Shown piece by piece: positions 8,764 to 24,700 of a DNA stretch of 64,000 bases (position 1 is its first letter; each line of letters starts with the position of its first letter). The DNA is taken from assembly GCA_963804525.1 (NCBI GenBank), contig CAWDQO010000005.1, positions 543,261 to 607,260 of the forward strand, given 5' to 3'. Below the pieces are notes generated by a model. The model was not told where the DNA came from and made no database searches. It saw only the letters and a list, made by a program, of their open reading frames with translations. The position numbers were made by a program, and so were the translations under genes. Origin of the DNA: an uncultured Thermoplasmata archaeon (lineage in GTDB: Archaea > Thermoplasmatota > Thermoplasmata > Lutacidiplasmatales > UBA184).

Positions 8764-9893
8764 GCTCGACCAGCTACCGAATCGTGGCCCTGCCCGGAGA
8801 CGGGACGGGACCCGAGGTGATCCGGGAGGGCCGGAAGGTCCTGGACGCCCTCGGGGAGAACGGACCGGCCCCCTGGACGGTCGACGAGCGTCCGGGCGGC
8901 GCGCAGTACTACCTGAAGACCGGGAAGGAGCTTGACCCGGAGACCCTGACCGCCGCCCGGGACGCCGACGCACTCCTCCTCGGGGCGGTGGGATGGCCCG
9001 GCGCCTCGCTGCCGAACGGGGACATCGCCGGCGCGGCTCTGGTCCTCGGGATGCGCCAGAACCTCGACCTCTATGCGAACGTGCGGCCGTGCAAGCTCTA
9101 CCCGGGCGTGCTCCACCGGATCGGAAAGTCGTACCAATCGGTCTGGCCGCCCGAGCTCGTCGACATGGTGATCATCCGCGAGAACACGGAGGGGCTCTAC
9201 ACCCCGGCCCGCGGCCGGCTGCGCCGCGCCGAGGAGACCGAGGTCGCGATCGACACCCGCGTCATCACCCGGAAAGGGGCCGAGCGGGTCATCCGGTACG
9301 CGTTCGACCTCGCCACCCGGAGGCCTCGCGGCGCGCCGGAGGACGGCGTGAAGCGGGTCACCTGCGTCGACAAGTCGAACGTCCTCGAGGGGTGCCGGTT
9401 CTTCCGGGAGACGTTCGACCGGGTCGCGAAGGACTACCCGACGATCGAGAAGGACTACGCGCTCGTGGATGCGTTCACCCAGTGGCTCGTGCGAAACCCC
9501 GAGCACTACAACGTCGTGGTCTCGACCAACATGATGGGCGACATCATCACCGACCTCGCCAGCGTCCTGCAGGGCGGGATGGGGTTCGCGGCCGGGGGGA
9601 ACATCGGCGACCACCACGCGATGTTCGAGCCGGTCCACGGCAGCGCCCCGAAGTACGCCGGCAAGAACCAGGTGAACCCGTTCGCGACGTTCGCGGCGGT
9701 CGAGATGCTCCTCCGCTGGCTGGGCGAGCGCAACTCCGATACCGCTCTTCTCCGCCAGGCGGACCGTCTGGGAACCGCCGTCGCGACGACGATCGCGGCG
9801 GGGACCGCGCGGACGTACGACCAGGGCGGCCACGTCTCCACGAGCGAGGCCGGCGACCGGGTCGCCGACGCGGTCCGGGCGGTGCCGGCATGA
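8760..9893 (+). CDS. leuB: 3-isopropylmalate dehydrogenase (isocitrate/isopropylmalate dehydrogenase family)
   Basis: YRIVALPGDGTGPEV, NLDLYANVRP, MMGDIITDLAS; ATGA overlap with the leuD stop. Confidence 0.85.
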   Translation: MSSTSYRIVALPGDGTGPEVIREGRKVLDALGENGPAPWTVDERPGGAQYYLKTGKELDPETLTAARDADALLLGAVGWPGASLPNGDIAGAALVLGMRQNLDLYANVRPCKLYPGVLHRIGKSYQSVWPPELVDMVIIRENTEGLYTPARGRLRRAEETEVAIDTRVITRKGAERVIRYAFDLATRRPRGAPEDGVKRVTCVDKSNVLEGCRFFRETFDRVAKDYPTIEKDYALVDAFTQWLVRNPEHYNVVVSTNMMGDIITDLASVLQGGMGFAAGGNIGDHHAMFEPVHGSAPKYAGKNQVNPFATFAAVEMLLRWLGERNSDTALLRQADRLGTAVATTIAAGTARTYDQGGHVSTSEAGDRVADAVRAVPA

Positions 9894-11071
9894 ACCTCGG
9901 ACGGGGGGTCTGCCTCGTCGGCGGAGCGACGACGAAGTTCGGCGTCCGGGCCGCGACCTGGGCGGAGCTCGCGCAGGAGGCCGGCGAGGCACTGTTCCGG
10001 GCCGTGCCGACGCTCACGACCGCCGACGTCGACAGCCTCTTCGTCGGCGCCGCCGAACCCGAGCGGTTCGCCTTCCAATCGCACGTGGCCCCGTTCGCCG
10101 CCGAGCAGATGGGGCTCGCGCCCCGGCGCGTCGTCCAGCGGACCGAGCTCGCCTGCGCCTCGGGCCAGTCGGCGATCCGCTCGGCGTACGCGGCGATCGC
10201 CTCCGGGCTCTCCGACGTCGCCGTCGCGGTCGGCGTCGAGAAGATGAACCTCCCGTCGATGGCGGAGGCGAACGCCTCGATGGCGTGCGTGATGGACCGG
10301 GCGTGGGACGGGGCGCACGGCGCGACCGCCCCGCCGTTCTTCGCGATGGTCGCCCAGCGGCACATGCTCGAGTACGGGACCACCGAGGAGGCGCTCGCGG
10401 CGGTCTCGGAGAAGAACCACAGGTTCGCCAACGCGAACCCGAACGCCCAGTTCGCGGAGAAGACGTTCGACCGCGCGAAGCTCGGACGGCTCCCCCTCGT
10501 CGCGCCTCCGCTCCGGCTCGGCGACTGCTCGTCGATGACCGACGGCGGTGCCGCGGTCGTCCTGGTCGCCGAAGAGCTCGCCAAGAAGTACACGGACCAT
10601 CCGGTCCACGTCCGCGGGACCGGGCAGTATGCCGACTTCCACAACCTCGCGAACGCCGGGTCGCTGACCGACTGGGTCGGCCTGCGCCACGCGGCGCACG
10701 AGGCGTTCCGGTCCGCCGGGATCGGACCCAAGGACCTCGATTTCGCGGAGGTCCACGACTGCTTCACGATCTCCGAGATCGTCGAGTACGAGGCGCTCGG
10801 GCTCTGCCCGCCGGGCGAGGGGGGCCAGTTCGTCCTCGACGGACGGTCGTCGATCGGCGGCGACCTCGCGGTCAACACCCGGGGCGGGCTCCTCGGCTGC
10901 GGCCACCCGCTGGGCGCGACCGGGATCGCCCAGGCGGTCGAGGTCGCCGACCAGTTCGCCCACCGCGTCCCGGCCGCCCGTCAGGTGCCGGACCCGGAAT
11001 GGGCCCTCGTCCACAACCTGAGCGGGAGCGCGAACGTCCACTCGGTCATGATCTACCAGGGGGCCTCGTAG
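9890..11071 (+). CDS. archaeal-type thiolase (acetyl-CoA C-acyltransferase, SCP-x-like)
   Basis: MNLGRGVCLVGGATTKFG, active-site Cys context ELACASGQSAIR, C-terminal GCGHPLGATG; ATGA overlap with the leuB stop. Confidence 0.85.
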   Translation: MNLGRGVCLVGGATTKFGVRAATWAELAQEAGEALFRAVPTLTTADVDSLFVGAAEPERFAFQSHVAPFAAEQMGLAPRRVVQRTELACASGQSAIRSAYAAIASGLSDVAVAVGVEKMNLPSMAEANASMACVMDRAWDGAHGATAPPFFAMVAQRHMLEYGTTEEALAAVSEKNHRFANANPNAQFAEKTFDRAKLGRLPLVAPPLRLGDCSSMTDGGAAVVLVAEELAKKYTDHPVHVRGTGQYADFHNLANAGSLTDWVGLRHAAHEAFRSAGIGPKDLDFAEVHDCFTISEIVEYEALGLCPPGEGGQFVLDGRSSIGGDLAVNTRGGLLGCGHPLGATGIAQAVEVADQFAHRVPAARQVPDPEWALVHNLSGSANVHSVMIYQGAS

Positions 11072-11602
11072 GTGGGCGCCGAGCTCGCCCGCGAGCGACG
11101 GAAGCCTTCGCAGGACGCCGCCACCGAACCGGGGGTCGCTCTCGCGCCCGAGTCCCCGCCGAAGAAGCCGGCGGCGCCTCCCCCGTTCCTCCTCGATTTC
11201 TTTCCCCTCGAAGGAGCCACCCAGACGCGGCTCTCCCCGTTCTTCGACCACCTGCAGTCCGGTCGCCTGACGACGACGAAGTGCCGTCGCGACGGCCAGC
11301 TGAGCTGGCCGCCGCGGGTCGTCTGCCCGAAGTGCCACACCTCCGACCTCGACTGGGTCGACCTCCCGAGGGACGGCCGCGTATACGCGTTCAGCGCCGT
11401 CCTCGTCGGCGCGCCGCTCGGCATGGAGGCCGAGGTTCCGTTCGTCGTCGGACTCGTCGAGCTCGAGGGGGTCCCATTCCGACTCTTCGGTCGGATCGTC
11501 GGGACCTCGTGGGAAGCGTGCCGCGTGGGACAATCGGTCCGGGCCGAACCGTACGACCTTGGCGACGGCCGGGTCTTCTACCGGTTCCGGGTCGTCGGGT
11601 AG
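11072..11602 (+). CDS. DUF35 OB-fold/Zn-ribbon protein (thiolase partner)
   Basis: GTG start immediately after the thiolase stop; Cys cluster C..C..C with OB-fold-like C-terminal half. This family is usually paired with archaeal thiolase and HMG-CoA synthase. Confidence 0.7.
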   Translation: MGAELARERRKPSQDAATEPGVALAPESPPKKPAAPPPFLLDFFPLEGATQTRLSPFFDHLQSGRLTTTKCRRDGQLSWPPRVVCPKCHTSDLDWVDLPRDGRVYAFSAVLVGAPLGMEAEVPFVVGLVELEGVPFRLFGRIVGTSWEACRVGQSVRAEPYDLGDGRVFYRFRVVG

Positions 11603-11711
11603 CGCCGTTCGCTCATCGACCCCGGGAGCGCCGGAACCGGCGCCGCTCCGCCGACAAATCGACCCGCACGACCTTCCGGAGTGGTCCGGGACCTTCGGGG
11701 TCCGGTGGCTA

Positions 11712-11718
11712 TTTATAC
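11712..11718 (+). promoter_or_regulatory. TATA box (ATTTATAC) upstream of aglB
   Basis: AT-rich heptamer 46 nt before the ATG at 11765; the upstream in-frame ATG at 11681 lies 5' of it and is therefore rejected as the start. Confidence 0.5.
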
Positions 11719-11764: not shown

Positions 11765-14700
11765 ATGGGATTGCCCGAAACCAGCTGGTGGCGCCGCCAT
11801 GGGTGGACCGTCATCATCCTCCTGGGGGCGTTCTCGATCTCCTTCCTGGTTCGCACGCTCTACGTGATCCCGCTGCTCCAGCAGTATGGCCCGATGAACC
11901 TCTTCGCGGGGGGTTCGGACTCGTTCTACCACTACCGCGTCACCGACTACATCATCCTCAACCACCAGAACCTCGGCCTCGACCTCTCGCTCCACTACCC
12001 GTTCGGGGCCGTCAACCCGCGGGAGCCGCTGTTCGACTGGATGAACGCGATCCTCGGGATCCTGTTCGCCCCGGTGTTCGGCGGGGGCGTCAACGGGGCC
12101 CAGATGGCGGGCGCGTGGTTCCTCGACTTCCAGGCCCCGTTCTGGGCCGCGCTCGGCGTCTTCCCGGTCTACCTGATCGGGAAGGAGGTGAGCTCGCGGA
12201 GGATGGGCCTCGTTGCGGCGCTCCTCTATCCGATCGTCGTGGCGAGCATCGACTCCTCGACGTTCGGGTACGCGAACTATCTCTCGTTCTACACGTTCTT
12301 CATCCTCATCGCCCTCTACGCTTACCTACGGACGGTCAAGGCCGCCGGGAGTCGGCGGTGGGTCGAGGACTACCGCCACCCCCGGCAGTTCTGGCCGGCC
12401 CTCAAATCGTACTATCGTCACGAACGTTCGGCCGTGAAATGGGCGGTGTTCACCGGCGTCGCCTTCGGCACCGTGATGTTGGCCTGGCAGGGGTACTCGT
12501 TCCTCGTCGCCGCAATCGTCGTGTTCCTCGCGATCCAGATGATCATCGAGCGGATCCGGCGCGTCGATTCGTTTGGCCTCTACACGCTGACCTGGCTGGT
12601 CGGGCTGATCGGGTTCCCGATGGCGGTCCCGTACTACTACTTCCAAGGGCTCGGGCGGGTCTGGTTCGACCAGCCGGCGCTCGTCTTCTTCGGGGCCCTC
12701 CTCGTCCTCCTGCCGTTCTTCCTCCTCCGCGACACCCCGTGGGTCGTGTCGGTCCCCGCCCTCATCGGCACCGCCGCGATCGCGATCGGCGCGCTGTTCC
12801 TCCTCGACCCGTCCGATTTCACGGCGATCGTGACGGGGCAGGGGTACTTCGTCAAGACACTCGTGTACTCGACGGTCGCCGAGGCGCAGGCGCCGTCGGT
12901 CGACTCGCTCATCCTTGGCTACGGCGTGGTGACGTTCTTCCTCGCGTTCGTGGGCCTCGCCCTGTACGCTTGGCGTACGGTCCGGGACCGGTTCCGCCGG
13001 GTCCAGGTGATGTTCATCGTCTTCGCGATCCTCTCGATCTACCTCCCGCTCTCGGCCGCCAAGTTCTTCTTCATCGGTTCGGCCGGGTTCGCGCTCCTCC
13101 CCGCCGAGGCGATCGTCCGGGCGCTCGATGTCGGCGGGTTCCCGGCCCTTCGGCGAAACATCACGTCGTTGTCCGACCGGCGGAGCCAGCTCAACGCGTT
13201 CCGGCGGTCGATCAAGGGCCGCCACATCCTCGTGATGGCCCTCGTCGTCGTGATCATGGTCCCGAACGTCTGGTACTCGATCGACGCCGGGATCCCCTAC
13301 AACGACAAGGGGACGTACTCGACCCAGATCTACAACACCCTCCCGCCTCCGCTCCGCGTCGCCCCGGCCAACGCGTCGTCGTTCTACCTCGGCGCGGCCG
13401 GCACGGAGCTTGACACCCCGAACCAGTACAACGAGGCCGGCTACAATTGGCTCGCCACGCAGGATACGCAGCTCGCCGAACCGCAACGTCCGGCGTTCAT
13501 CAGCTGGTGGGATTACGGGTTCCAGGCGGTCGCGGAGGGGGACCATCCCACCGTCGCCGACAATTTCCAGAACGGGATCGACCCCGCGGGGAATTTCCTC
13601 CTCGCGCAGAACGAGTCGAACGCGATCGCCGTGCTCGCCACGACCCTCCTGTCCGCCGAGCAGGCGCGGAGCCACGACCCGTACCTCCCGAGCACCCTCA
13701 ACGGGATCCTCGCCCGGGACGGCGTCAACGTCGCGACGGTCCACAACCTGATGGTGAACACCTCGGCCGACATCCCGATGGTCATCGCTCATCCCGAGCG
13801 GTACCTCCCCGTCGACCCGAACAACCTCGACAGCCAGAACGCGATGTACGACACGATGTCGTACTACCTCGCGACCGCGCTCTCCACCAACGGGGTCGCC
13901 CAGGTGTACAACGACATCCAGGCGTACACGGGCTGGTCGATCCGGTACACCATGGTCGATTCGCGGCTCTTCCCCTTCAGCGGCTCGAACACCGGGATCT
14001 TCTACGCCCCGGCCGACCTCACCGACCGGGTGATCGGGGCGGGGGGCGCGCCGACCGCCTACTACACCCTCTCCGTCCTCGGCTCCGACGGCAACACCTA
14101 CTCCCCCTCCGACGTCCCGGCGGGGGTCACCGCGGTCCAGTACAACATCGACTACCTCCCGGCGTTCTACTCCTCCATGATCTACCGGATCTACGTCGGG
14201 TACAACGGGAGCGACATCGGCGCGTCCAGCCAGGGGATCCCGGGACTGACGAACAACGCCGTCGGGGCCGACCCGGTGGAGCCGGGTTGGATGCTCTCCC
14301 ACTTCCAGGTCGTGTACCGCACGGCGTACGAGTGCCCCCAGGCGAACGCGACGGACGGCTCGAGCTGCTTCTCCGCGTACAACCTGCCCCAGGCGGAGGC
14401 GCTCGCCAAGGCCCAGAACGGCACGGCCGACACCTCGACGAGCTCGTACTTCGGCGGCGGCGAGTCGATGCTCGAGTACTATCCGGGCCAGACGATGACC
14501 GGGACCGTTCAGCTCCCGGACGGCACGCCGGTCTCCGGGGCCCGCGTGACGGTCTACGACAGCTGGGGGATCCCCCACATGACGACCGTGACGGGGTCGA
14601 ACGGCACCTACTCGGTCATCCTCCCGCCGGGCGCCGACCGCGTGAACGTCACGACGGGCGCGCTCGACGGTCTCACCCAGGCGGGCGCGACGACCCTCGC

Positions 14701-17700
14701 GGCCCTCAACGTCACGGTCCCGAACGCGACGGGACTCTCCCTCGACGCCCCCACGATGGTGAGCCCGATCGTGATCCACCCCGCGACGGTGAGCGGGTTC
14801 GTCTACTGGAACACCGCCAACAACTCGACGTTCGTGCGGGCTACCGACCCGGTCCTCTCGGGGGCCGTCGCGACCCTGTATGGCCCGGGGCTCGTCAACC
14901 GGAGCGCGACCACCGACGCGAGCGGAGCGTTCCAGATGCTCGACGTTCCCCCGGGCGTCTACAACTTCACGGTCACCTACCGCGGGGGGTCGTTCAGCGA
15001 GCCGAACGTCTACGCGCTCCCGGGAAAGACGGCGAATGAGACGGTCGGCCTCACCCCGGGGACGCTCAACGGCCACGCGGACTTCTCGAACGGGTTCGGC
15101 GTCGCGAACGCGGCGGTGACCGTCTCGACCGCCGCCGGGCTCTTCACCACCGCCACCGCCGATACCGACGGAAACTTCACCGTCCGGAACCTGCCGCCCG
15201 GCAACTACTCGGTGTCGGTCATGGCCCCGGGAGTCTCGCTCGGCTCCCTCGGGAACGCGATCTCGATCCCGCAGGCCGGTTCGTCGGCCCAACTGAACGT
15301 CACGCTCGTTCCGCTCGTCGCCGTCGACCAGCAGGTCCTCCTGAACGGCAACCCGGTCGCCGGCATCCCGGTCCGGTTCACCGAATTGACGGTTCCCTCG
15401 GCTACCGCCCCCGTGCCGACGAACGCTTCGTCGGCCGCGCCGCCCGGGGCGACCGCCGCCAAGGCGAACAGTTCGGTGTTCCTGACCGGCCCGGATGGTC
15501 TCGTCCGCGCCACCCTCCCCCTCGGGAACTACTCGGTCTACGCCTTCGGGCTCAACGGGACGTCCTGGTACGCGGGATTCTCGACCGCCTACCTGAACGC
15601 CTCCGGCGGGAACTCCCTCCCGCCCGTCGACCTCTCCACCGCCGTCGAACTCTCCGGCTCGGTGAGCGGGTCGCCGTCGACGAGCGCCGGGCCGGCGAGC
15701 ACGGAGGTGACGGTGTTCGACAGCGCCGGGCACCAGGTCTCCACGTTCGCGAACATCACCCAGTCGTACGCGATCTGGCTCCCCGCGGGGCGGTACACGG
15801 TCCTCGCGACGGCGAGCGTGCCGAACTCGACCGCGCCTCCCGTCGTGTTCCTCTCGGCGGTCTCGGTCCCGTACTCGACGACGCTGCCGATCTCCCTCGG
15901 ACCCGGGGAGCTCGTCCGCGGCGTCGTCGCGAGCCCCTCGAGCGTCGGGAGCGCCCCGTACCCGGCCGCGGGCGCGCTCGTGACGGTCACCGAGCTTCCC
16001 ATCAACGCCACGGTCTCGGCCGTGGCCGACGGGAACGGCAACATCACCCTCGCGCTCCCGGCGATCGTCCCGTCCGGCACCTCGTTCTGCGTCGCCGCGA
16101 CCGCGACCGGGTTCCGACCGTATCGGGCGTGCGACTTCACGGCGAGCGAGCTCGCTTCGCTCGGGGAGATTCCCCTCGGGCTCTCCCCGGTCCCGCTGAA
16201 CTTCACCGTCGTCGGCCTGCCGGGCGGAACGAAGGTCACGGTCAACTTCACCGCCCTCACGAGCCCGGCGGAGTCGACCGTGAAGGTCGGTGGCCCGACG
16301 TTCGCGTTCTCGATCGTTCCCGGCAGCTACCGGATCACCGCGTGGGCGAAGTCCCCGAACGGGACCGGTCTCCTGCTCCCCCCGAATTCGCTCAACCTGA
16401 CGATCCCCCTCGGGACGAGGGGGACGAACGTCACGCTCACGATTCTCTCCCAGGTCCGTGCGGTCGGGCATCTCGTCCTGCCCACGGACGTCACCAATAG
16501 CTCGGTCGTCCTCCGGCTGAGCTCGCCGAAGATGAACGTGACCGTCAACGGTGCGACGTTCGAGTCGGGGTTCTTCCTCGCGCCGGGGACGTACGCCGTC
16601 TACGCGACCGCTCCGAACAGCGGCAACGGGACGGTGGCCACGATGACGAGCGTGGTCGTGAACGCGACGGGCCACCTGTCGAAGGCGATCTCGCTCACGA
16701 CGCTCGGTGTCCCCGTCGTCGGCTCGCTCGTGACCGGGACCGGAGCCCCGCTCAACGCGACGGTCGTCCTCAACCTCTCGGGTCCGTCCGGGGTCGCGAC
16801 GCAGGTCACGGCGACCGGCGGCCATTTCGTCCTCACGCTCCCTCCGAACGCGACCTACCCGGTCCGGGCGAACGCCACCGTCCTCCTGCCGGAATCGGGC
16901 GGGACCGCGTACGTCGCACTCTCGGTTGCCCCGACGTTCGTCGGATGCGTCGTCGGAGACGGCGCGAACGCGACCTGCACCGTGCCGTTCGTCACGACGA
17001 CGATCCCGACGCCGGTCGACGGCACGCTGAAGGCCGCGGGGTTCTCCTCCTCCCTCCCCGGCACCGTGGAGTTCATCGGCCCGTACCCGTCGGCGAACGC
17101 CACGTTCGTCAACGCGAGCGCCGGCGCGTTCGCCACGACGCTCCTCCCGGGGAACTATTCGATCTACGCGACCGGGGGCGCCGGAGTTCCGTACGCCAAC
17201 GTTTCCTCCCTCATCGTGACCACGACCGCCGCGCCGTCGCTGACGATCCACCTCCTCCCGACGTGGACCGACGTCGTCACGATCGTCCCCCCGTCGGGTT
17301 CGCTCGCCCAATTCGCCACCCTCTCCATCACCGCCCCGGGGGGAACGGTCGTGCAATTCTCCGGTGAGCCGGCCGGGACGCCCATCCCGGTGGAGCTCCC
17401 CGCGGGATTGTACACGGTCGCGAGCTCAACGACGGGAGTGCCGTACGGGGTCGTGGTCAACGCGACCGCTTCGGTCTCGGTCCCGCTGCTCGACGGAAAT
17501 GCGGCCACGTCGCTCGCGCTCGCCTACGAATTCACCTCGACCGTCGCGTTCACGACCGTCGCCCCCACCACCGTCACCGTTCCCGCCGGTTCGACCGTCA
17601 CGTTCGCGTTCACGATCCGGAACACCGGAAACCAGCCGGAGAACCTGACGTTCCTCGGCAGCCCCGCGTTCTGGAACTTCACCTTCCTCCCGGCGTCGGT

Positions 17701-18394
17701 CCACCTCGGCGTCCTCGGTCGGAACAGCTCGGTCGGCGGCGAGGTCCGGATCATCGTGCCCGCGGGAACCGACACCCTCCAACCCTCGGTCCAGCTGGAG
17801 GCCGTGAACGCCGTCACGCAGGCCCCGGTCGGCTTCGCTCAGCCGGTGCCGACGATCGACATCACCCCGGTCTTGGGCCTCACGCTCGGGGCCGCGACCT
17901 CGGTCGGGGCGGCGGTCGGCCCGTACGAGGCGACGATCCCGTTCTACGTCCAGAATACCGGCAACCTCGTCGAGGGGACGACGCTCACCGTCGTCGACTC
18001 GGCCGCCCTCGCCGCCATCGGCTGGACGGCGGTCATCAACAAGGGGCCGACCCTGGCCCCGGAGCCGAACGAGCTCGCCCCCGGTTCCAACTCGACGTTC
18101 GCGGTCCGGTTGACGTCCCCGCTTCACCAGGCGCTCCCGCCCGGGTCCGTGACGGTCTCGGCGACGGTGAGCAACCTCTCCGGGGGACTCTCGCGCTCGC
18201 TCACCCTCTCCGTGCCGAAGCTCACGGTCGCCCTCAACAATTCGACCGCGCTCGTGACCGGACCGAACCTCGGTTCCCCGAGCCCGTACCCCAGCTGGCT
18301 CGTACCGGTCCTCGTGTTCGTTCCGGCGGCCGCCTTCCTGATCGTCGCGGGCGTCTACCGGTGGATGCGGACCCGCAGGTGGACCCGGCGATGA
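11765..18394 (+). CDS. aglB: oligosaccharyltransferase AglB/STT3 (~700-aa catalytic multi-TM core) fused to a ~1,500-aa C-terminal extension of repeated beta-sandwich (CarboxypepD_reg/Ig-like) domains and a terminal TM helix; 2,209 aa
   Basis: ~13 TM N-terminal domain, WWDYG catalytic motif (ISWWDYGFQA), DK-like motif YNDKGTY. Repeats of type G.V.LPDGTPVSGARVTVYDSWG...GSNGTYSVILPPGADRVNVT. C-terminal anchor WLVPVLVFVPAAAFLIVAGVYRW. No frame breaks over 6.6 kb. Confidence 0.85.
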   Translation: MGLPETSWWRRHGWTVIILLGAFSISFLVRTLYVIPLLQQYGPMNLFAGGSDSFYHYRVTDYIILNHQNLGLDLSLHYPFGAVNPREPLFDWMNAILGILFAPVFGGGVNGAQMAGAWFLDFQAPFWAALGVFPVYLIGKEVSSRRMGLVAALLYPIVVASIDSSTFGYANYLSFYTFFILIALYAYLRTVKAAGSRRWVEDYRHPRQFWPALKSYYRHERSAVKWAVFTGVAFGTVMLAWQGYSFLVAAIVVFLAIQMIIERIRRVDSFGLYTLTWLVGLIGFPMAVPYYYFQGLGRVWFDQPALVFFGALLVLLPFFLLRDTPWVVSVPALIGTAAIAIGALFLLDPSDFTAIVTGQGYFVKTLVYSTVAEAQAPSVDSLILGYGVVTFFLAFVGLALYAWRTVRDRFRRVQVMFIVFAILSIYLPLSAAKFFFIGSAGFALLPAEAIVRALDVGGFPALRRNITSLSDRRSQLNAFRRSIKGRHILVMALVVVIMVPNVWYSIDAGIPYNDKGTYSTQIYNTLPPPLRVAPANASSFYLGAAGTELDTPNQYNEAGYNWLATQDTQLAEPQRPAFISWWDYGFQAVAEGDHPTVADNFQNGIDPAGNFLLAQNESNAIAVLATTLLSAEQARSHDPYLPSTLNGILARDGVNVATVHNLMVNTSADIPMVIAHPERYLPVDPNNLDSQNAMYDTMSYYLATALSTNGVAQVYNDIQAYTGWSIRYTMVDSRLFPFSGSNTGIFYAPADLTDRVIGAGGAPTAYYTLSVLGSDGNTYSPSDVPAGVTAVQYNIDYLPAFYSSMIYRIYVGYNGSDIGASSQGIPGLTNNAVGADPVEPGWMLSHFQVVYRTAYECPQANATDGSSCFSAYNLPQAEALAKAQNGTADTSTSSYFGGGESMLEYYPGQTMTGTVQLPDGTPVSGARVTVYDSWGIPHMTTVTGSNGTYSVILPPGADRVNVTTGALDGLTQAGATTLAALNVTVPNATGLSLDAPTMVSPIVIHPATVSGFVYWNTANNSTFVRATDPVLSGAVATLYGPGLVNRSATTDASGAFQMLDVPPGVYNFTVTYRGGSFSEPNVYALPGKTANETVGLTPGTLNGHADFSNGFGVANAAVTVSTAAGLFTTATADTDGNFTVRNLPPGNYSVSVMAPGVSLGSLGNAISIPQAGSSAQLNVTLVPLVAVDQQVLLNGNPVAGIPVRFTELTVPSATAPVPTNASSAAPPGATAAKANSSVFLTGPDGLVRATLPLGNYSVYAFGLNGTSWYAGFSTAYLNASGGNSLPPVDLSTAVELSGSVSGSPSTSAGPASTEVTVFDSAGHQVSTFANITQSYAIWLPAGRYTVLATASVPNSTAPPVVFLSAVSVPYSTTLPISLGPGELVRGVVASPSSVGSAPYPAAGALVTVTELPINATVSAVADGNGNITLALPAIVPSGTSFCVAATATGFRPYRACDFTASELASLGEIPLGLSPVPLNFTVVGLPGGTKVTVNFTALTSPAESTVKVGGPTFAFSIVPGSYRITAWAKSPNGTGLLLPPNSLNLTIPLGTRGTNVTLTILSQVRAVGHLVLPTDVTNSSVVLRLSSPKMNVTVNGATFESGFFLAPGTYAVYATAPNSGNGTVATMTSVVVNATGHLSKAISLTTLGVPVVGSLVTGTGAPLNATVVLNLSGPSGVATQVTATGGHFVLTLPPNATYPVRANATVLLPESGGTAYVALSVAPTFVGCVVGDGANATCTVPFVTTTIPTPVDGTLKAAGFSSSLPGTVEFIGPYPSANATFVNASAGAFATTLLPGNYSIYATGGAGVPYANVSSLIVTTTAAPSLTIHLLPTWTDVVTIVPPSGSLAQFATLSITAPGGTVVQFSGEPAGTPIPVELPAGLYTVASSTTGVPYGVVVNATASVSVPLLDGNAATSLALAYEFTSTVAFTTVAPTTVTVPAGSTVTFAFTIRNTGNQPENLTFLGSPAFWNFTFLPASVHLGVLGRNSSVGGEVRIIVPAGTDTLQPSVQLEAVNAVTQAPVGFAQPVPTIDITPVLGLTLGAATSVGAAVGPYEATIPFYVQNTGNLVEGTTLTVVDSAALAAIGWTAVINKGPTLAPEPNELAPGSNSTFAVRLTSPLHQALPPGSVTVSATVSNLSGGLSRSLTLSVPKLTVALNNSTALVTGPNLGSPSPYPSWLVPVLVFVPAAAFLIVAGVYRWMRTRRWTRR

Positions 18395-19224
18395 GGTCGT
18401 CTCAGGTCCGGAAGGCGATCGCGTTTGCCGCCGTCGTGGGCCTCCTCGCGCTGGCGAGCGTCGTGCCGGGGAACCTCCCGACTGCCCGGGCGACCCCGGC
18501 GTTCGGGGTGCTCTCCGGGACGATCGCTGGCCCGCTCGAGGTCGGGCTGAGCGGGAACGGCACGTACGTGGTCAACGCGACCGGCGGACCCGCGGTCGCG
18601 GCGAACGGGACGCAGGTCGGGATTTACTCGTACAACGCCTCGGTGACCGGAGCGAACGTCTCGACCGTCGTGATCGCTCCGACCGGCGGTTCGATGCCGA
18701 ACGGCACGATCACGCTCACCCTGAAGGCCGGGAACCTGAGCCAGCAGCTGACGATCTACGTCCTCGTCACCTCGTCGCTCAACGGGACCGGCACGCAGAA
18801 CTCGACGACGAACCTCTCGTACACGGTCAACGTCGTGGTCCCGTACCGGTTCACCGCGACGATCGTCGCCGGGAGCGGCGGGACCCTGGCCCCGCTCAAC
18901 CTCACCGTCCTCTTGGACGGCGTGGCGGTCGGCTCGATCCCCGTCGGCACCCTCGCCGCGGGGACCCACTACCCGATCGCGTTCAGCTACGTCGACCCGA
19001 ACATCTCGCCCGGGTGGCACACGTTCTCCGTCTCCCTCGCCCTCGCGCACGGCCTCGTGTCGTTCGCGGGCGGGGCCGAGACGATCAGCGAGTCGTTCTA
19101 CGTCAGCGGGCCTCCGCCGAACGATACGATCTGGTACGTCGGTGGCCTCGGCGCGTTCGTCGGTGTCGTCTTTATATGGACCACCCGAATGGCCGCGAAC
19201 CGCCGCCCCCGGGCGAAGAAGTGA
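18391..19224 (+). CDS. small surface glycoprotein candidate (signal peptide, ~20 N-X-S/T sequons, C-terminal TM anchor)
   Basis: ATG overlaps the aglB TGA (ATGA). MRSSQVRKAIAFAAVVGLLALASVVPG...; sequons NGT, NAT, NAS, NVS, NLS, NST, NLT, NIS, NDT. C-terminus GLGAFVGVVFIWTTRMAANRRPRAKK. Confidence 0.65.
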   Translation: MRSSQVRKAIAFAAVVGLLALASVVPGNLPTARATPAFGVLSGTIAGPLEVGLSGNGTYVVNATGGPAVAANGTQVGIYSYNASVTGANVSTVVIAPTGGSMPNGTITLTLKAGNLSQQLTIYVLVTSSLNGTGTQNSTTNLSYTVNVVVPYRFTATIVAGSGGTLAPLNLTVLLDGVAVGSIPVGTLAAGTHYPIAFSYVDPNISPGWHTFSVSLALAHGLVSFAGGAETISESFYVSGPPPNDTIWYVGGLGAFVGVVFIWTTRMAANRRPRAKK

Positions 19225-19246: not shown

Positions 19247-19417
19247 ATGACCGCTCCCGACACGCGCTGCACCTCCTCCGGCGTCGCCCTCGGCGGCCGG
19301 GGGACGACGACGTTCCCGTGCCCGGACTGCGGGGTCGCGACGCTCGGCCGGTGCGCCCGGTGCCGCGACCAGTCGGTCCTCTACACCTGTCCGAACTGCG
19401 GATTCCAGGGCCCGTAG
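19247..19417 (+). CDS. small Zn-ribbon protein (COG2888-like, conserved partner of aEF-1beta)
   Basis: 56 aa, CPDCG...CARCRD...CPNCG; sits immediately upstream of the aEF-1beta gene, as in many archaea. Confidence 0.6.
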   Translation: MTAPDTRCTSSGVALGGRGTTTFPCPDCGVATLGRCARCRDQSVLYTCPNCGFQGP

Positions 19418-19425
19418 GAGCGTCC

Positions 19426-19692
19426 GTGGGCCAGGTCGCGGTGCTGTTCCGACTGATGCCGCAGGGGGTCGAGACCGACCTCAAGGCGATGGCCGAGGCG
19501 GTCCGGGCCACGCTGCCGACCGGGGTCCAGGTCCGCGGGATGCAGGTGAAGGACATCGCCTTCGGGCTGAAGTCGCTCCTCGTGAGCGTCGTGATGGCCG
19601 ATTCCGGCGGGGTCCTCGAGGCGACCGAGCAGGCGTTCGCGAAGGTGCCGCACGTCGAATCGGTCGAGGTGATGGAAGAAGGGCTGCTCTGA
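19426..19692 (+). CDS. ef1b: translation elongation factor aEF-1 beta
   Basis: GTG start. GQVAVLFRLMPQGVETDLKAMAEAV...DIAFGLKSLLVSVVMADSGGVLEATEQAFAKVPHVESVEVMEEGLL; 88 aa, characteristic aEF-1beta length and profile. Confidence 0.8.
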   Translation: MGQVAVLFRLMPQGVETDLKAMAEAVRATLPTGVQVRGMQVKDIAFGLKSLLVSVVMADSGGVLEATEQAFAKVPHVESVEVMEEGLL

Positions 19693-21754: not shown

Positions 21755-24700
21755 ATGAAGCGCGGAGCGGTCGGGGACAGGATGACGGCGAACGCGTCCG
21801 GGCGACCGGCCCGGCCGAAGGACCGCGCGCTCCCGGCCGCCCTGATCCTCCTGGTCTGCGCGGTGGTCGTGGGGAGCTACGCGTCGTTGCCCACCGTCGC
21901 CGTGGTCACGAGCCCGGTCGCGTCCCCCTCGGCGGCGATCACGAGCCCGGCGGGGACCACCGCGACGCCCGTCGGGGTCGGCCCCACGGTCGTCCCCCCA
22001 ACGCTCGCGTCGTCGATCGCCGCGACCCCGTGGACGACCCCCAAGGTCACGTTCGATGCTCCGGGACCGCACCTCGCGTCGTGGGGTGGCCCGGCCCCGC
22101 CGGGCGCGCCGACGCCCGAGATCCCGCATGCCTCGTCCGGAGGAGGATGGTGGGGCGGCAACGAGAGCGGCCTCAACACGCGCTGCGCCGGGATCTGGCC
22201 CTCGACGGGCGGGCAGTCGCAGGTACTACGGGAGCTGCTACGGGCACGACGAGCCCGGGATCGACCCGTACTCGAACCTCGTCGGGAGCGGCGGGAACGT
22301 GACGTGGCACATCCAGCTGCCGGTCGACCGGAGCCCGACCGAGAACCAGTCGAGCCTGTACATCGCGATCTGGTTCGGGATGACGTTGAGCGACCCGTAC
22401 GCGTGGATGAACCAGTGCTTCCTCGAGCTCCAGTTCTACCCGGATTCGAGCTGGAGTGACCCGTTCGGGACGGTCGACGGGAGTTGGGACGGCGCCGCCG
22501 TCGCCTGGCAGATCCAGGCGTCGAGCGGGTACGAGAACCCGTGCTACTACTCCCCGCTGATGACCTCGGGGAACACGTCGTCGTACTTTCACATGACCCA
22601 GGGCGACTCGGTCAACGTGACGATGAACGGGTGGATCGGCGACCCGTACGGGGAGAACATCTCGGTCGACGACACCTCGAGCGGCCAGTCGTCGTTCGTC
22701 ACGATGTACAACTCGTCGGGGCACTACCCGGTCGACCCGGCGTACGCGACGAGCTCCTGGTCGAACGCGCTCTGGTGGACCCCGGGAGGCGAGACGCCCG
22801 TCTCGTTCGCCTTCGAGACCGGTCACGCCGTGAACCCGGCCGTCCCGGAGAACAACAGTTTCGGCGGATGCAGCCCGGGGGCCCCTCCGCCAACCCCGTG
22901 GAACGGGGCCGTTCCGTGCCCGAGCTACGAGCCCGGGGCGTGGGCGAACGACACCCTCGTCCCCTGGCAGATCGCCGCCCCGACGTTCTTTAACGCGACC
23001 GCCCGGCAGAACGCGACGCAGGTCGGATTCAGCCAGGACCTCGGCGGGCTCGCGTTCATCGACGGGACCGACTACTTCGGCTCGTTCCCGTACACGTGCC
23101 TCGGCCAGGAAATGAGCGCGTACTGCACCTACCCCTGGTACAGCTACTCCTGTTCGACCCACGCGTACAACTTCGGGGCCACCGACTACCCGACGACGAC
23201 CGACGATTTCGACAAAGCGCTCGAATTCAAGAGCGTCACCACGCAGAACGCCGCCGGGGAGGGATACTACCCCGTAACGAACGAATCGGTCCCGAGCTGC
23301 GGCGCGACGTCGACGGTCACCGCCGGAACGAGCGGGTCGGGGTCCGGGACGGTCGACTTCCTGAACGGCACGGTCACGAACGCGGTCCGGGTCTTCTCCG
23401 GCGTCGCGTCGGGGAACTACTCGGTGGCCGCGTGGGCGAGCCCGGGGTCGACGTTCGACCACTGGAGCGTCGTCGGCGGGGCGACGGTCGCGCCCGCCGA
23501 CGACCCGTGGGCCAACGTCGACGTCACCGGTGCGAGCGTCGTCACCGCCGTGTTCGACCTCGCCGGCACCGTCGGGGGCCTCGAGGCCAACGTGACGTTC
23601 GCCTCCTCCCTCGCCTCGGCCCGGTTCGCGGTCATCGCCGGCGTCGCCTCGAGCGGGTTCGGCATCGGAGCGTCTCCGGAGACCTGGGAGATCCCGAACG
23701 GCACCACCCTCGCGCTCGCGCCCGGGTTGTACTCCCTCGAGGGCCAACCTCCGCCCGGGTACAACTTCACCGGCTGGGCGGGGACGTCCGGGGTCCGCGT
23801 CTCCGCCCCGACGTTCCCGGACACGGTCCTCGACGTCCCCGCGGGGGCGAACGCGACCGTGACCGCCTCGTTCGCCGCCGCGTCCGGAGCCGCCGAGGTC
23901 CTGATCGAGACACCGAACCCGTCGGACGTCGTGACGCTCGACGGCGTGAATTATTCCGGCGGGTTCGCCGTGACCGGCCTCGCGGTCGGCACGTTCCGGC
24001 TCAACTTCACGCCCGCCGCCGGGTCGACGTTCGTCACGTGGGAGTACGGGGGTCTCGCGATGATGACGAACTTCTCGCAATCGACGTGGGCGACGTTCGA
24101 ATCGGGGGTCTCGGAGATCCTCGCGGTGAGCTCCGCCGTCGAGGCGGTCACGCTGAACGACTCGGGGAGCAACGGGGAGGTCGCCTGGAACACCGAGGGG
24201 AACGCCACGGCCCTCTCCGTTCCCTCGGGGACGACGATCGACCAGACCACGACGTCCGCCTCGAGCTCGTCCCCGGTCGTGTTCGGCATCGTCGCGACGC
24301 CGGCCCCCGGCTGGGGGTTCGCCAACTGGACCGTCTCTCCCGGCGCGGTCGCGTTCGTGCAAGCCCCGCTCGGCTCCGCGACGAACGTCCTGTTCAACTC
24401 GACCGGCGTGACCCCGGTCACAATCACCGCGAACTACGTCGCGAGCGGCTCGGCGAACGGGAGTCTCACGGTCTTCCCCTCCGGGTCCGGCTCCGTCACC
24501 CTGGGGTTCTCGTCGAACCACCTGACCGGCGGCAGCGGGCCCATCCCGAACGCGAGCTTCTACGTGGTCGAGTTCCCGAACTCCGGCGACGTCGTGACCG
24601 GGCTGACCGTCACGAACGGCACCGCCACCCTCGTCCAGGGGTCTTCGCCGACGACCCGTCCGTGGGTACCGTGGGTCTGGGTCGTGACCGCGGTCGGACC

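What the first reader, a model, noticed from the sequence alone, without database searches (positions are those of the whole stretch)
11765..18394. Giant AglB: oligosaccharyltransferase fused to ~1,500 aa of beta-sandwich repeats and a second membrane anchor
The STT3/AglB catalytic core (13 TM, WWDYG, DK motif) occupies only about the first 700 aa. The protein then continues without a frame break for ~1,500 more residues, made of at least eight CarboxypepD_reg/Ig-like repeats (G.V.LPDGTPVSGARVTV...GSNGTY...LPPG.Y), and ends in a C-terminal TM helix. Typical archaeal AglB proteins are 600-1,000 aa. A 2,209-aa OST with a bitopic repeat arm is unusual and may scaffold substrate proteins or the S-layer.
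Basis: partly seen in the sequence, partly recalled or inferred. Interest (0 to 1): 0.6.

Follow-up and report, generated by a model that had tools for sequence, protein, structure and literature searches.

The report
Giant AglB with doubly anchored arm
The 2,209-residue gene is real: an archaeal protein-glycosylating enzyme (AglB) fused to a sugar-coated chain of 13 Ig-like domains that re-enters the membrane, an architecture shared across the phylum Thermoplasmatota that I could not find described.

Summary
Window 11765-18394 (+) is one uninterrupted 2,209-aa ORF. It has an AglB/STT3 core of about 905 aa (not 700), then 13 beta-sandwich domains (11 transthyretin/CarboxypepD_reg-like and 2 CARDB-like), a linker, a 14th TM helix and a basic tail.

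It is not a lost stop codon. More than 300 homologues of 2,176-2,231 aa cover it end to end. An AglB-core search finds mostly 2,000-3,170-aa proteins down to 29-33% identity. These include Thermoplasma volcanium (2,076 aa), Aciduliprofundum, Methanomassiliicoccales and Poseidoniales. The window comes from a Lutacidiplasmatales archaeon (80% identity to Ca. Lutacidiplasma silvani).

Three new points:
- The arm carries 45 N-glycosylation sequons where 13.6±3.2 are expected.
- A roughly 270-aa CARDB-type membrane glycoprotein gene abuts or overlaps the AglB stop across orders.
- This clade has replaced the second metal-binding DXD motif (Asp-His-His/Asp) by Asn-Tyr-Leu, together with Arg426→Lys.

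The function of the arm is inferred, not shown. My best guess is a non-catalytic scaffold or spacer, similar in architecture to NOMO.

The parts
11712..11717 (+). TATA-like box (TTTATA) about 48 nt upstream of the start codon
   Evidence: Read directly. Function as a promoter is inferred.
11765..18394 (+). Giant AglB coding sequence, 2,209 aa plus TGA stop
   Evidence: A 100% identical protein (P0001) lies on 6 contigs.
11765..13294 (+). GT-C/STT3 membrane domain (aa 1-510, 13 TM by homology to AfAglB-L)
   Evidence: Pfam STT3 matches aa 51-472. The family profile matches 3waj/5gmy at E 4e-39.
11918..11920 (+). Asp52, first DXD motif (GGSD), equivalent to AfAglB Asp47
   Evidence: Invariant in 84/84 representatives. 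Equivalence was counted in the alignment.
12275..12283 (+). Asn171-Tyr172-Leu173 in place of the second DXD motif (AfAglB Asp161-His162-His163)
   Evidence: The residues are invariant in the 40 close homologues.
12872..12883 (+). TIXE motif (Thr370-Val-Ala-Glu373) in external loop 5
   Evidence: T370 and E373 are invariant in 84 representatives.
13061..13063 (+). Lys433 at the position of AfAglB Arg426 (phosphate site)
   Evidence: K occurs in every NYL/DYL/DYQ species and R in all others.
13295..14479 (+). Extracellular globular domain of AglB (aa 511-905)
   Evidence: TIGR04154 covers aa 17-954. AglB_core-like matches aa 576-624.
13505..13519 (+). WWDYG motif (aa 581-585)
   Evidence: W581, W582, D583 and G585 are invariant and Y584 nearly so.
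14480..14773 (+). Arm domain D1 (aa 906-1003), transthyretin/CarboxypepD_reg-like, the most conserved arm domain
   Evidence: PF13620. AF2 model. 60% identity against 32-48% for the other arm domains. Near-invariant residues occur across the phylum.
14774..17524 (+). Arm domains D2-D11 (aa 1004-1920), ten further transthyretin-like beta-sandwiches, with a disordered loop at aa 1211-1234
   Evidence: AF2 models. hhalign network. Foldseek top hit is BaTIE 6fwv.
17525..18214 (+). Arm domains D12-D13 (aa 1921-2150), CARDB-like beta-sandwiches with RNTGN/QNTGN motifs
   Evidence: AF2 model. D12 and D13 are related to each other only. There is a weak DUF7507 hit. The CARDB label rests on the motif and a below-threshold hit, so it is tentative.
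18215..18298 (+). Low-confidence linker (aa 2151-2178) with conserved GP..GSP..YP.W
   Evidence: pLDDT below 50. Conserved residues are listed.
18299..18391 (+). 14th TM helix (aa 2179-2197) and basic cytoplasmic tail (aa 2198-2209)
   Evidence: Hydropathy score 2.65. AF2 helix. 60% conserved. A C-terminal TM plus basic tail is present in 70 of 71 representatives of 2,000 aa or more.
18391..19224 (+). Partner gene: 277-aa membrane glycoprotein with an N-terminal hydrophobic segment, 13 sequons, a C-terminal TM and a basic tail. Its ATG overlaps the AglB stop (ATGA).
   Evidence: It is syntenic in 65 loci, 62 of them GTDB species genomes. CARDB is detected in 55/63 homologues. PDB profile hits are 3idu and 2kl6.

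Best explanation
This is the AglB oligosaccharyltransferase of a Lutacidiplasmatales (Thermoplasmatota) archaeon.

Shown: a normal-sized AglB core of about 905 aa (13-TM GT-C domain plus extracellular globular domain carrying WWDYG) continues into 13 tandem beta-sandwich domains. A 14th TM helix with a basic tail follows.

Inferred from topology: the AglB C-terminal domain is extracellular and the tail obeys the positive-inside rule. The arm is therefore an extracellular chain held in the membrane at both ends. Its contour length is roughly 30-50 nm.

The arm is itself a dense N-glycosylation substrate. A conserved, probably co-translated CARDB-type single-pass glycoprotein is encoded immediately downstream.

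Most likely mechanism (inferred): the arm and its partner form a non-catalytic, glycan-shielded scaffold or spacer that belongs to the OST machine. The conserved D1 packs on the catalytic domain. The conserved CARDB-like end and TM14 return to the membrane next to the enzyme and the partner. The fast-evolving middle domains act as a spacer of conserved length. In architecture this resembles the single-pass beta-sandwich subunits of eukaryotic OST and the translocon tether NOMO. It does not look like an adhesin or an accident of gene fusion.

In this clade the catalytic centre is also remodelled: two of the three direct protein ligands of the metal are lost. The chemistry may therefore differ from characterised AglBs.
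For: Anatomy:
- One ORF.
- AglB homology.
- AF2 models with pLDDT 82 and 85, all-beta, then a TM helix.
- Only tandem-Ig rods come up as fold matches: BaTIE, pilins, alpha-2-macroglobulin MG domains and SlaB. No enzyme fold appears.

Not a fusion artefact:
- 318 homologues were found, and the top 120 are 2,176-2,231 aa at about 100% coverage.
- 435 GTDB genome stretches encode relatives. tblastn spans aa 1 to about 2,200 even at 25-32% identity in other orders.
- Cultured species carry it.

Both ends of the arm are constrained while the middle is free:
- D1 is 60% and TM14 plus tail 60% identical, against 32-48% for D2-D13 and 65-66% for the core.
- Arm length changes (1,425 aa in Acidiplasma, 3,171 aa in Poseidoniales) keep D1, the CARDB-like end and the TM anchor.
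- Most orders keep about 2,050-2,250 aa.

Exposure and glycosylation:
- 45 sequons against 13.6±3.2 in shuffles, with 13 positions conserved in at least 30/39 homologues.
- Arm composition tracks habitat: D+E is 3-5% in acidophile-like lineages and 9-21% in the others.

Partner:
- Its start lies within -60 to +8 nt of the AglB stop in nearly all loci that have room, including Methanomassiliicoccales and DHVE2.
- It is a CARDB protein.

NOMO resemblance:
- The best or near-best PDB sequence hit of the family profile is human NOMO2, at E 3e-18 and 1.7e-38.
- NOMO has 12 Ig-like domains, a C-terminal TMH and a tethering role (PMC11169918).
Against: - No experiment or structural model links the arm to the catalytic domain, to TM1-13, to the partner or to SecYEG.
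- The NOMO similarity is at repeat level. The same profile region, about positions 1040-1270, hits four NOMO regions. It is not collinear, so it argues for shared domain type, not shared ancestry of the whole arm.
- High sequon density and habitat-tracking composition fit a purely structural surface coat equally well.
- Conservation of TM14 outside the close family is generic (hydrophobic plus basic).
- Loss of Asp161/His163 equivalents raises the possibility that this clade's enzyme is not a conventional OST, or not active at all.
Confidence: 0.45

Rival explanations
1. The arm is mainly a cell-envelope element. It would be a glycocalyx or S-layer-like pillar that coats or spaces the surface of these often wall-less archaea. 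Fusion to AglB would only ensure local self-glycosylation and co-expression.
For: - The arm is strongly enriched in sequons.
- Its composition tracks external conditions.
- The Foldseek hits include the S-layer stalk SlaB, 8qox_B.
- Thermoplasmatales such as Cuniculiplasma lack S-layers yet keep AglB (PMC5155288).
- The number of middle domains varies between lineages.
Against: - An enzyme is unlikely to be made in the amounts needed for a coat.
- The architecture is kept in lineages reported or predicted to have S-layers and in lineages without them.
- Anchoring at both ends and a conserved D1 next to the catalytic domain suggest an intramolecular role.
- A separate 1,429-aa sequon-rich surface protein lies nearby.
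Confidence: 0.3
2. In the Lutacidiplasmatales clade the protein is a pseudo-enzyme. The OST active site is dead because the second DXD motif is lost, and only the arm or scaffold function remains. Another enzyme would carry out N-glycosylation.
For: - Asp161 and His163, which are direct metal ligands in AfAglB (PMC8342417), are Asn171 and Leu173 here.
- Arg154→Ser and Arg426→Lys.
Against: - Asp52, TxxE373 and WWDYG are invariant.
- The core is the most conserved part of the protein at 65-66%.
- The substitutions are coupled and fixed across 38 species. That looks like a derived functional state.
- The dense sequons on the arm and the partner imply active N-glycosylation in these organisms.
- I did not search for a second AglB in these genomes.
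Confidence: 0.1
3. The arm is an adhesin or ligand-binding module for cell-cell, cell-mineral or polymer binding, as in many CarboxypepD_reg/CARDB surface proteins.
For: The domain types are common in bacterial and archaeal adhesins: SdrD, pilins and cellulosomal scaffoldin appear among the hits.
Against: - The arm is tethered at both ends.
- No terminal binding domain or enzyme fold is present.
- It is conserved phylum-wide across very different habitats.
- It is buried under predicted glycans.
Confidence: 0.08
4. It is an artefact: two genes joined by a lost stop codon or by mis-assembly.
For: None found.
Against: - The same single ORF occurs in hundreds of independent genomes, including closed genomes of cultured species.
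- The homologues align end to end.
Confidence: 0.01

Closest known systems
Archaeoglobus fulgidus AglB-L (PDB 3WAJ/3WAK/5GMY/7E9S), the structurally characterised archaeal OST
   Same: - Homologous 13-TM GT-C domain plus extracellular domain (family profile E 4e-39 over aa 19-623).
- First DXD Asp, TIXE Glu and WWDYG are all present.
- The core size is similar (about 905 aa against 868-875).
   Different: - About 1,300 extra residues: 13 beta-sandwich domains, a 14th TM helix and a basic tail.
[quoted passage not shown]
- The whole-protein score is below the TIGR04154 cut-off (226 against 450).
Eukaryotic NOMO (BOS complex subunit of the multipass translocon; PDB 9C7V)
   Same: - A chain of about 12-13 transthyretin/CarboxypepD_reg-type Ig-like domains on the non-cytoplasmic side, ending in one TM helix and a short tail.
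- It is the best or near-best PDB sequence hit of the family profile.
- NOMO is proposed to be a tether near the translocon and works with a membrane partner (PMC11169918).
   Different: - NOMO is a free type-I protein with a signal peptide, not fused to an enzyme.
- The similarity is repeat-level, not collinear.
- No nicalin or TMEM147 counterpart was looked for.
- The host lineage is Thermoplasmatota, not Asgard.
Non-catalytic eukaryotic OST subunits (ribophorin I/Ost1, OST48/Wbp1, ribophorin II/Swp1)
   Same: Single-pass membrane proteins whose lumenal beta-sandwich domains sit beside STT3 (from general knowledge). The arm with TM14 and the CARDB partner have the same kind of topology.
   Different: No sequence or fold match to these subunits was obtained here. 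In this protein the module is covalently fused and far longer.
Bacillus anthracis TIE protein (PDB 6FWV) and Gram-positive pilin / SdrD B-repeat rods
   Same: Top Foldseek matches (E 1e-11) are rigid tandem Ig-like 'beads on a string'.
   Different: Those are secreted or wall-anchored adhesins. They have no enzyme domain and are not anchored in the membrane at both ends.
Giant AglB orthologues already in databases (e.g. Thermoplasma volcanium TVG1271204, 2,076 aa; Aciduliprofundum sp. MAR08-339, 2,081 aa; Ca. Lutacidiplasma silvani)
   Same: Same architecture and same downstream partner. The window protein is a member of this family, at 80% identity to Ca. L. silvani.
   Different: They are annotated only as 'carboxypeptidase regulatory-like domain-containing', 'GT family 39', 'STT3 domain-containing' or hypothetical. 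Thermoplasmatales have RMH/RAH at the second DXD position, where the window has NYL.

Membership tests
AglB/STT3/PglB oligosaccharyltransferases (GT-C, GT66) | N-terminal multi-span GT-C membrane domain homologous to STT3 | tested here: met
   Pfam PF02516 matches aa 51-472 at E 6e-7, above its cut-off. The family profile matches AfAglB-L at E 4e-39 and human/yeast STT3 at E 1e-11.
AglB/STT3/PglB oligosaccharyltransferases (GT-C, GT66) | First DXD-type acidic residue in external loop 1 (AfAglB Asp47) | tested here: met
   Asp52 in GGSD is invariant in 84 representatives.
AglB/STT3/PglB oligosaccharyltransferases (GT-C, GT66) | Second DXD motif supplying two metal ligands (AfAglB Asp161, His163; PglB Asp154, Asp156) | tested here: not met
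   The window has Asn171-Tyr172-Leu173. Among the 84 representatives, 62 have D[HW]D (60 DHD, 2 DWD). Ligand roles are taken from PMC8342417.
AglB/STT3/PglB oligosaccharyltransferases (GT-C, GT66) | TIXE/SVSE motif Glu in external loop 5 | tested here: met
   T370-V-A-E373, with T and E invariant.
AglB/STT3/PglB oligosaccharyltransferases (GT-C, GT66) | WWDXG motif in the extracellular domain | tested here: met
   WWDYG at aa 581-585.
AglB/STT3/PglB oligosaccharyltransferases (GT-C, GT66) | DK or MI motif forming the Ser/Thr pocket | tested here: inconclusive
   No alignment to a solved AglB extends beyond aa 634. PMC3703281 notes that variant DK motifs cannot be found without a structure. The conserved YxMVDSRLFPF at aa 728-738 is only a candidate region.
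AglB/STT3/PglB oligosaccharyltransferases (GT-C, GT66) | Transfer of a lipid-linked glycan to Asn in N-X-S/T | not testable with these tools
   This needs an enzyme assay. The only indirect hint is sequon enrichment on the arm and the partner.
TIGR04154 archaeo_STT3 (archaeosortase A-associated OST subfamily) | Whole-protein score above the curated cut-off (450 bits) | tested here: not met
   225.8 bits. The protein is related to this subfamily but is not a member.
CarboxypepD_reg / transthyretin-like repeat (PF13620) | Significant match to the domain model | tested here: met
   E 5e-25 with 4 stretches. D1-D3 are individually above the cut-off. D4-D11 are linked by hhalign at 75-97%, and D6 only at 57%.
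NOMO family (BOS complex subunit) | About 12 tandem transthyretin-like domains plus a C-terminal TM, collinear with NOMO, as a free type-I protein | tested here: inconclusive
   The architecture is similar and the profile hit reaches E 1.7e-38, but the matches are repeat-level and not collinear. Pfam NOMO_5th is below its cut-off. The arm is fused to AglB rather than free.
CARDB domain proteins (PF07705), for the downstream partner | Significant match to CARDB | tested here: inconclusive
   55 of 63 syntenic homologues match (best E 9e-17), and the family profile hits the CARDB-like structures 3idu and 2kl6. The window's own copy gives no Pfam hit on its own.
Archaeosortase-type C-terminal sorting signals (PGF-CTERM and relatives) | Signature motif plus TM plus basic cluster, recognised by NCBIfam models | tested here: not met
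   No NCBIfam hit at E≤10 for the C-terminal 64 aa of AglB or the C-terminal 54 aa of the partner, and no PGF/PEF motif is present. It reads as a plain TM anchor.

The most novel reading that the evidence does not exclude
Thermoplasmatota may have built a multi-component OST machine in a single operon. The NOMO-like arm, TM14 and the CARDB partner would form an arch that holds the catalytic site at a fixed geometry next to the Sec translocon or under the cell envelope. That would be an archaeal, partly cis-encoded counterpart of the eukaryotic OST and translocon accessory subunits. In addition, acid-soil and acidophilic lineages may run OST chemistry without the canonical second DXD metal site, as an adaptation of an outward-facing active site to low pH.
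Probability: 0.15. Interest if true: 0.8.

Novelty: new variant of a known kind. Interest (0 to 1): 0.5.

Why it matters
All mechanistic knowledge of archaeal OST comes from stand-alone AglBs of about 600-1,000 aa.

- A whole phylum uses an AglB more than twice that size, with a conserved, doubly anchored Ig-domain arm and a dedicated membrane partner. This suggests that 'single-subunit' prokaryotic OSTs can carry built-in accessory machinery. It offers a tractable model for what non-catalytic OST and translocon subunits do.
- The coupled loss of two metal ligands and the Arg→Lys change at the phosphate site, in 38 species, is a natural experiment on the metal dependence of OST catalysis.
- Practically, these genes are widely mis-annotated as carboxypeptidase regulatory-like, GT39 or hypothetical. 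Surveys of N-glycosylation in Thermoplasmatota may therefore miss them.

Tried and rejected
- **Lost stop codon or mis-assembly:** rejected.
- **Upstream start:** the GTG at 11681 is the first possible start, but homologues begin at the ATG 11765 position and a TATA-like box fits it.
- **Known C-terminal sorting signal (archaeosortase type):** no hit.
- **Enzyme or lectin fold hidden in the arm:** none. Only Ig-like rods match.
- **Collinear homology to NOMO:** rejected. The similarity is repeat-level only.
- **Literature:** eight full-text searches and ten papers read found no mention of the giant size, the arm, the partner or the DXD replacement. Nikolayev et al. 2020 and Vinogradov et al. 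2012 are not held, and Kaminski et al. 2013, recalled from memory, did not turn up in the searches. Prior description therefore cannot be excluded.
- **Partner family beyond Thermoplasmata:** the profile search gave 51 hits, all unnamed or 'hypothetical'.

Full report

Yes. The + strand ORF from ATG 11765 to TGA 18392-18394 is one frame of 2,209 codons. A TTTATA box lies 48 nt upstream of the ATG, and homologues start at the same position. A 100% identical protein is recorded on six contigs, and the three shown come from three separate JGI samples. The window has about 70% G+C. Its nearest GTDB species genome is Candidatus Lutacidiplasma silvani AcS3-62, at 80% identity over aa 1-2209. That matches the description of Lutacidiplasmatales as roughly 69% G+C, 2.1-Mb genomes from acidic soils (PMC9287336).

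**2. Anatomy**

*The AglB core.*
- Pfam finds STT3 at aa 51-472 and AglB_core-like at aa 576-624.
- NCBIfam TIGR04154 (archaeal STT3) covers aa 17-954 but scores 226 bits against a cut-off of 450.
- A profile of 84 family representatives aligns to A. fulgidus AglB-L (3WAJ/5GMY) over aa 19-623 at E 4e-39, and to eukaryotic STT3A/B at E 1e-11.
- The AglB part is therefore about 905 aa, a normal 'long' AglB, and not 700 aa.

*The arm.*
- Two AlphaFold2 models were built on 18-sequence alignments: aa 900-1560 (pLDDT 82.1) and aa 1545-2209 (pLDDT 84.7).
- They are all-beta up to aa ~2150. A low-confidence linker follows, then a helix at aa 2179-2203.
- The strand pattern gives 13 beta-sandwich domains.
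- Pfam sees only D1-D3 confidently as CarboxypepD_reg.
- Profile-profile comparison links D1, D2, D3, D5 and D9 at over 90%. It links D4, D7, D8, D10 and D11 at 75-97%, D6 weakly at 57%, and D12-D13 only to each other.
- D12 and D13 carry the (R/Q)NTGN motif that I take to be typical of CARDB-like domains. Pfam gives only a below-threshold DUF7507 hit there, so the CARDB label for them is tentative.
- Foldseek against the PDB returns only tandem Ig-like rods: B. anthracis TIE, Gram-positive pilins, SdrD, alpha-2-macroglobulin MG domains, ciliary Ig chains and the S-layer stalk SlaB. No catalytic fold appears.

*Topology (inferred).* By homology the AglB C-terminal domain is extracellular. The final helix is followed by YRWMRTRRWTRR, which fits the positive-inside rule. 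The arm is therefore outside the cell and fixed in the membrane at both ends.

**3. Is it more than a curiosity of this genome?**

- A word-indexed search gave 318 homologues. The top 120 are all 2,176-2,231 aa, 48-100% identical and cover about 100% of the query.
- An exhaustive HMMER search with the core alone (aa 1-900) found 273 cluster representatives at E<1e-30. Among the best 150, nearly all full-length proteins are 2,000-2,800 aa (maximum 3,174) down to 29-33% core identity.
- In 70 of 71 representatives of 2,000 aa or more, a hydrophobic C-terminal helix plus a basic tail is present.
- Source names include Ferroplasma sp. and Candidatus Poseidoniales.
- A second search added Thermoplasma volcanium GSS1 (TVG1271204, 2,076 aa), Thermoplasma sp., Oxyplasma meridianum, Caldiplasma, Cuniculiplasma and Aciduliprofundum sp. 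MAR08-339.
- In GTDB, 435 genome stretches encode relatives. tblastn spans aa 1 to about 2,200 even at 25-32% identity in Methanomassiliicoccales, DHVE2 and Ca. Saliniplasma.
- Acidiplasma has a 1,425-aa version with fewer middle domains, but it still has D1, a CARDB-like NNTGN domain and the C-terminal anchor.

The architecture is therefore an old trait found across the Thermoplasmatota orders sampled here, not a lost stop codon. It has been present in public genomes of cultured species for many years, annotated as 'carboxypeptidase regulatory-like', 'GT family 39', 'STT3 domain-containing' or 'hypothetical'.

**4. What constrains the arm?**

- Against 34 members at 48-55% overall identity, the membrane domain is 65% identical and the globular domain 66%.
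- D1 is 60%, D2 is 48% and D3-D13 are 32-44%. TM14 plus tail rises again to 60%.
- Several D1 residues (V915, G920, D932, P937, H938, T943) are near-invariant across the whole phylum.
- The arm has 45 N-X-S/T sequons against 13.6±3.2 in composition-preserving shuffles. About two thirds of its Asn residues (45 of 67) lie in sequons. Close homologues have 30-47 sequons, and 13 of the 45 positions are kept in at least 30/39.
- The arm has only 3.8% Asp+Glu and 2.5% Lys+Arg. Across the phylum, arm composition splits into acid-poor, sequon-rich forms (this clade and Thermoplasmatales) and acidic forms with 9-21% D+E.
- This is what one expects of a surface exposed to the medium.

**5. A conserved partner**

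- The next gene (18391-19224) starts with an ATG that overlaps the AglB stop (ATGA).
- It encodes 277 aa with an N-terminal hydrophobic segment, 13 sequons (2.9±1.5 expected), a C-terminal TM helix and a basic tail.
- tblastn finds it directly downstream of AglB in 65 loci. These are 62 GTDB species genomes, including Methanomassiliicoccales and DHVE2 at 23-30% identity, plus the three contigs that carry the identical gene.
- An ORF scan shows starts within -60 to +8 nt of the AglB stop in nearly all loci with enough sequence.
- 55 of 63 of these proteins match Pfam CARDB. The family profile hits the CARDB-like structures 3IDU and 2KL6, with the first strand separated from the rest by an insert of about 85 aa.
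- All database copies are unnamed or 'hypothetical'.
- Tight, phylum-wide coupling of the two genes argues for a physical or functional partnership. That is inferred, not shown.

**6. An unexpected feature of the catalytic centre**

I checked residue equivalences by counting in the alignment to AfAglB-L:

| AfAglB-L | Window |
|---|---|
| Asp47 | Asp52 |
| Arg154 | Ser164 |
| Asp161-His162-His163 | Asn171-Tyr172-Leu173 |
| Trp215 | Trp241 |
| Glu360 | Glu373 |
| Arg426 | Lys433 |

- In AfAglB the metal is bound by Asp47, Asp161 and His163, with Glu360 acting through waters. Arg426 lies at the phosphate site (PMC8342417; PMC7226087).
- Of 84 representatives, 62 have D[HW]D at this position. The window's clade has NYL. 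Thermoplasmatales-like representatives have RMH or RAH, and a few others have GYD, LFD, VHD, RHY or RHR.
- In 71 GTDB species genomes with a complete AglB N-terminus, 38 Lutacidiplasmatales-like species have NYL, DYL or DYQ, always together with Lys433. All 33 others have D[HW]D (two have GYD) with Arg at both positions.
- In the representatives, most departures from D[HW]D occur where the arm is acid-poor (D+E 3-5%), although there are exceptions such as P0129, P0150, P0262 and P0265.
- Asp52, TxxE and WWDYG are invariant everywhere.

Coupled and fixed substitutions in the best-conserved part of the protein point to a derived working state, not decay. It might be an adaptation of an outward-facing active site to low pH, or to a different lipid-linked donor. 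Activity is untested, and I did not check for a second AglB paralogue.

**7. How it most likely works**

*Shown:* the domain anatomy, its conservation, the sequon enrichment, the operon partner and the active-site substitutions.

*Inferred:* the topology, with the arm outside and the tail inside.

*Proposed:* the arm and partner are a non-catalytic scaffold or spacer of the OST. D1 would be fixed to the catalytic domain. The CARDB-like end, TM14 and the partner would sit at the membrane. The glycan-covered middle domains would act as a spacer whose length is held near 13 domains in most orders.

The closest architectural analogue is eukaryotic NOMO, with 12 Ig-like domains, a C-terminal TMH and a tethering role at the multipass translocon (PMC11169918). 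NOMO2 is also the best or near-best PDB sequence hit of the family profile, at E 3e-18 and 1.7e-38. However, the same arm region hits four NOMO regions. This is shared domain type, not demonstrated common descent of the whole arm.

The main rival is a purely structural surface pillar or coat. It explains the glycosylation and the habitat-tracking composition equally well. It explains less well the conserved ends, the double anchoring, and persistence in lineages both with and without S-layers. An adhesin role and a pseudo-enzyme reading are less likely. An artefact is excluded.

**8. Novelty and verdict**

The gene is a member of a large family already present in databases, including cultured species. 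The window itself therefore adds a new member. The family-level architecture, its partner gene and the DXD-less active site appear undescribed in the 8 million papers searchable here. Key subscription papers on AglB phylogeny could not be read, so prior mention cannot be excluded.

I rate it a new variant of a known kind, with moderate interest (0.5). The anatomy is solid. The lineage-trait result lowers the surprise of this particular locus. The partner gene and the active-site remodelling raise the value of the family as a whole.

Noticed in passing
window 12275-12283 (N171-Y172-L173), 12254-12256 (S164), 13061-13063 (K433): The second DXD metal-binding motif of the OST (AfAglB Asp161-His162-His163) is Asn-Tyr-Leu here. 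Arg154 is Ser and Arg426 is Lys. The changes are coupled and fixed in 38 Lutacidiplasmatales-like species, while 33 species of other orders keep D[HW]D (two have GYD) plus Arg at both positions. Thermoplasmatales have RMH/RAH. Most departures from D[HW]D go with acid-poor, sequon-rich arms.
   Followed up: partly
window 18391-19224 (+): A 277-aa single-pass, sequon-rich membrane protein gene overlaps the AglB stop (ATGA). It is syntenic with giant AglB across Thermoplasmatota orders, belongs to the CARDB family at family level, and is annotated 'hypothetical' everywhere.
   Followed up: yes
window 22056-26345 (+): A 1,429-aa ORF rich in N-X-S/T sequons with a C-terminal TM helix. It has no Pfam family beyond a weak InlB B-repeat hit. 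It may be a major surface glycoprotein and AglB substrate. In the related contig L001 the called gene starts earlier and is 1,529 aa.
   Followed up: partly
window 26406-28145 (-): A 579-aa gene, called on the related contigs L001 and L002, with no Pfam hit.
   Followed up: no
window 9890-11602 (+): Directly upstream of AglB lie a thiolase gene and a DUF35/ChsH2-type OB-fold gene. From memory, this is the pair that works with HMG-CoA synthase in the archaeal mevalonate pathway, i.e. the isoprenoid/dolichol supply. Before them lies a leuA/leuCD/leuB-like block. Any functional link to AglB is speculative.
   Followed up: no
P0317 (Acidiplasma sp., 1,425 aa); P0264/P0284 (Ca. Poseidoniales, 3,171 aa): Arm length is evolutionarily plastic, from about 5 to about 20 domains, while D1, the CARDB-like end and the C-terminal anchor persist. 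Most orders stay at about 2,050-2,250 aa.
   Followed up: partly
P0246, P0248, P0262, P0263, P0265, P0268, P0269 (1,096-1,224 aa): These AglB relatives of about 1,100-1,290 aa have no C-terminal TM helix. They may be truncated gene calls or a genuinely shorter class with only 2-3 extra beta-sandwich domains.
   Followed up: no
window 19247-19692 (+): Ribosomal protein aS21 and EF-1beta genes follow the partner gene on the same strand with short gaps (the first gap is 22 nt, by offset from the related contig L001). The AglB pair may therefore be co-transcribed with translation genes.
   Followed up: no
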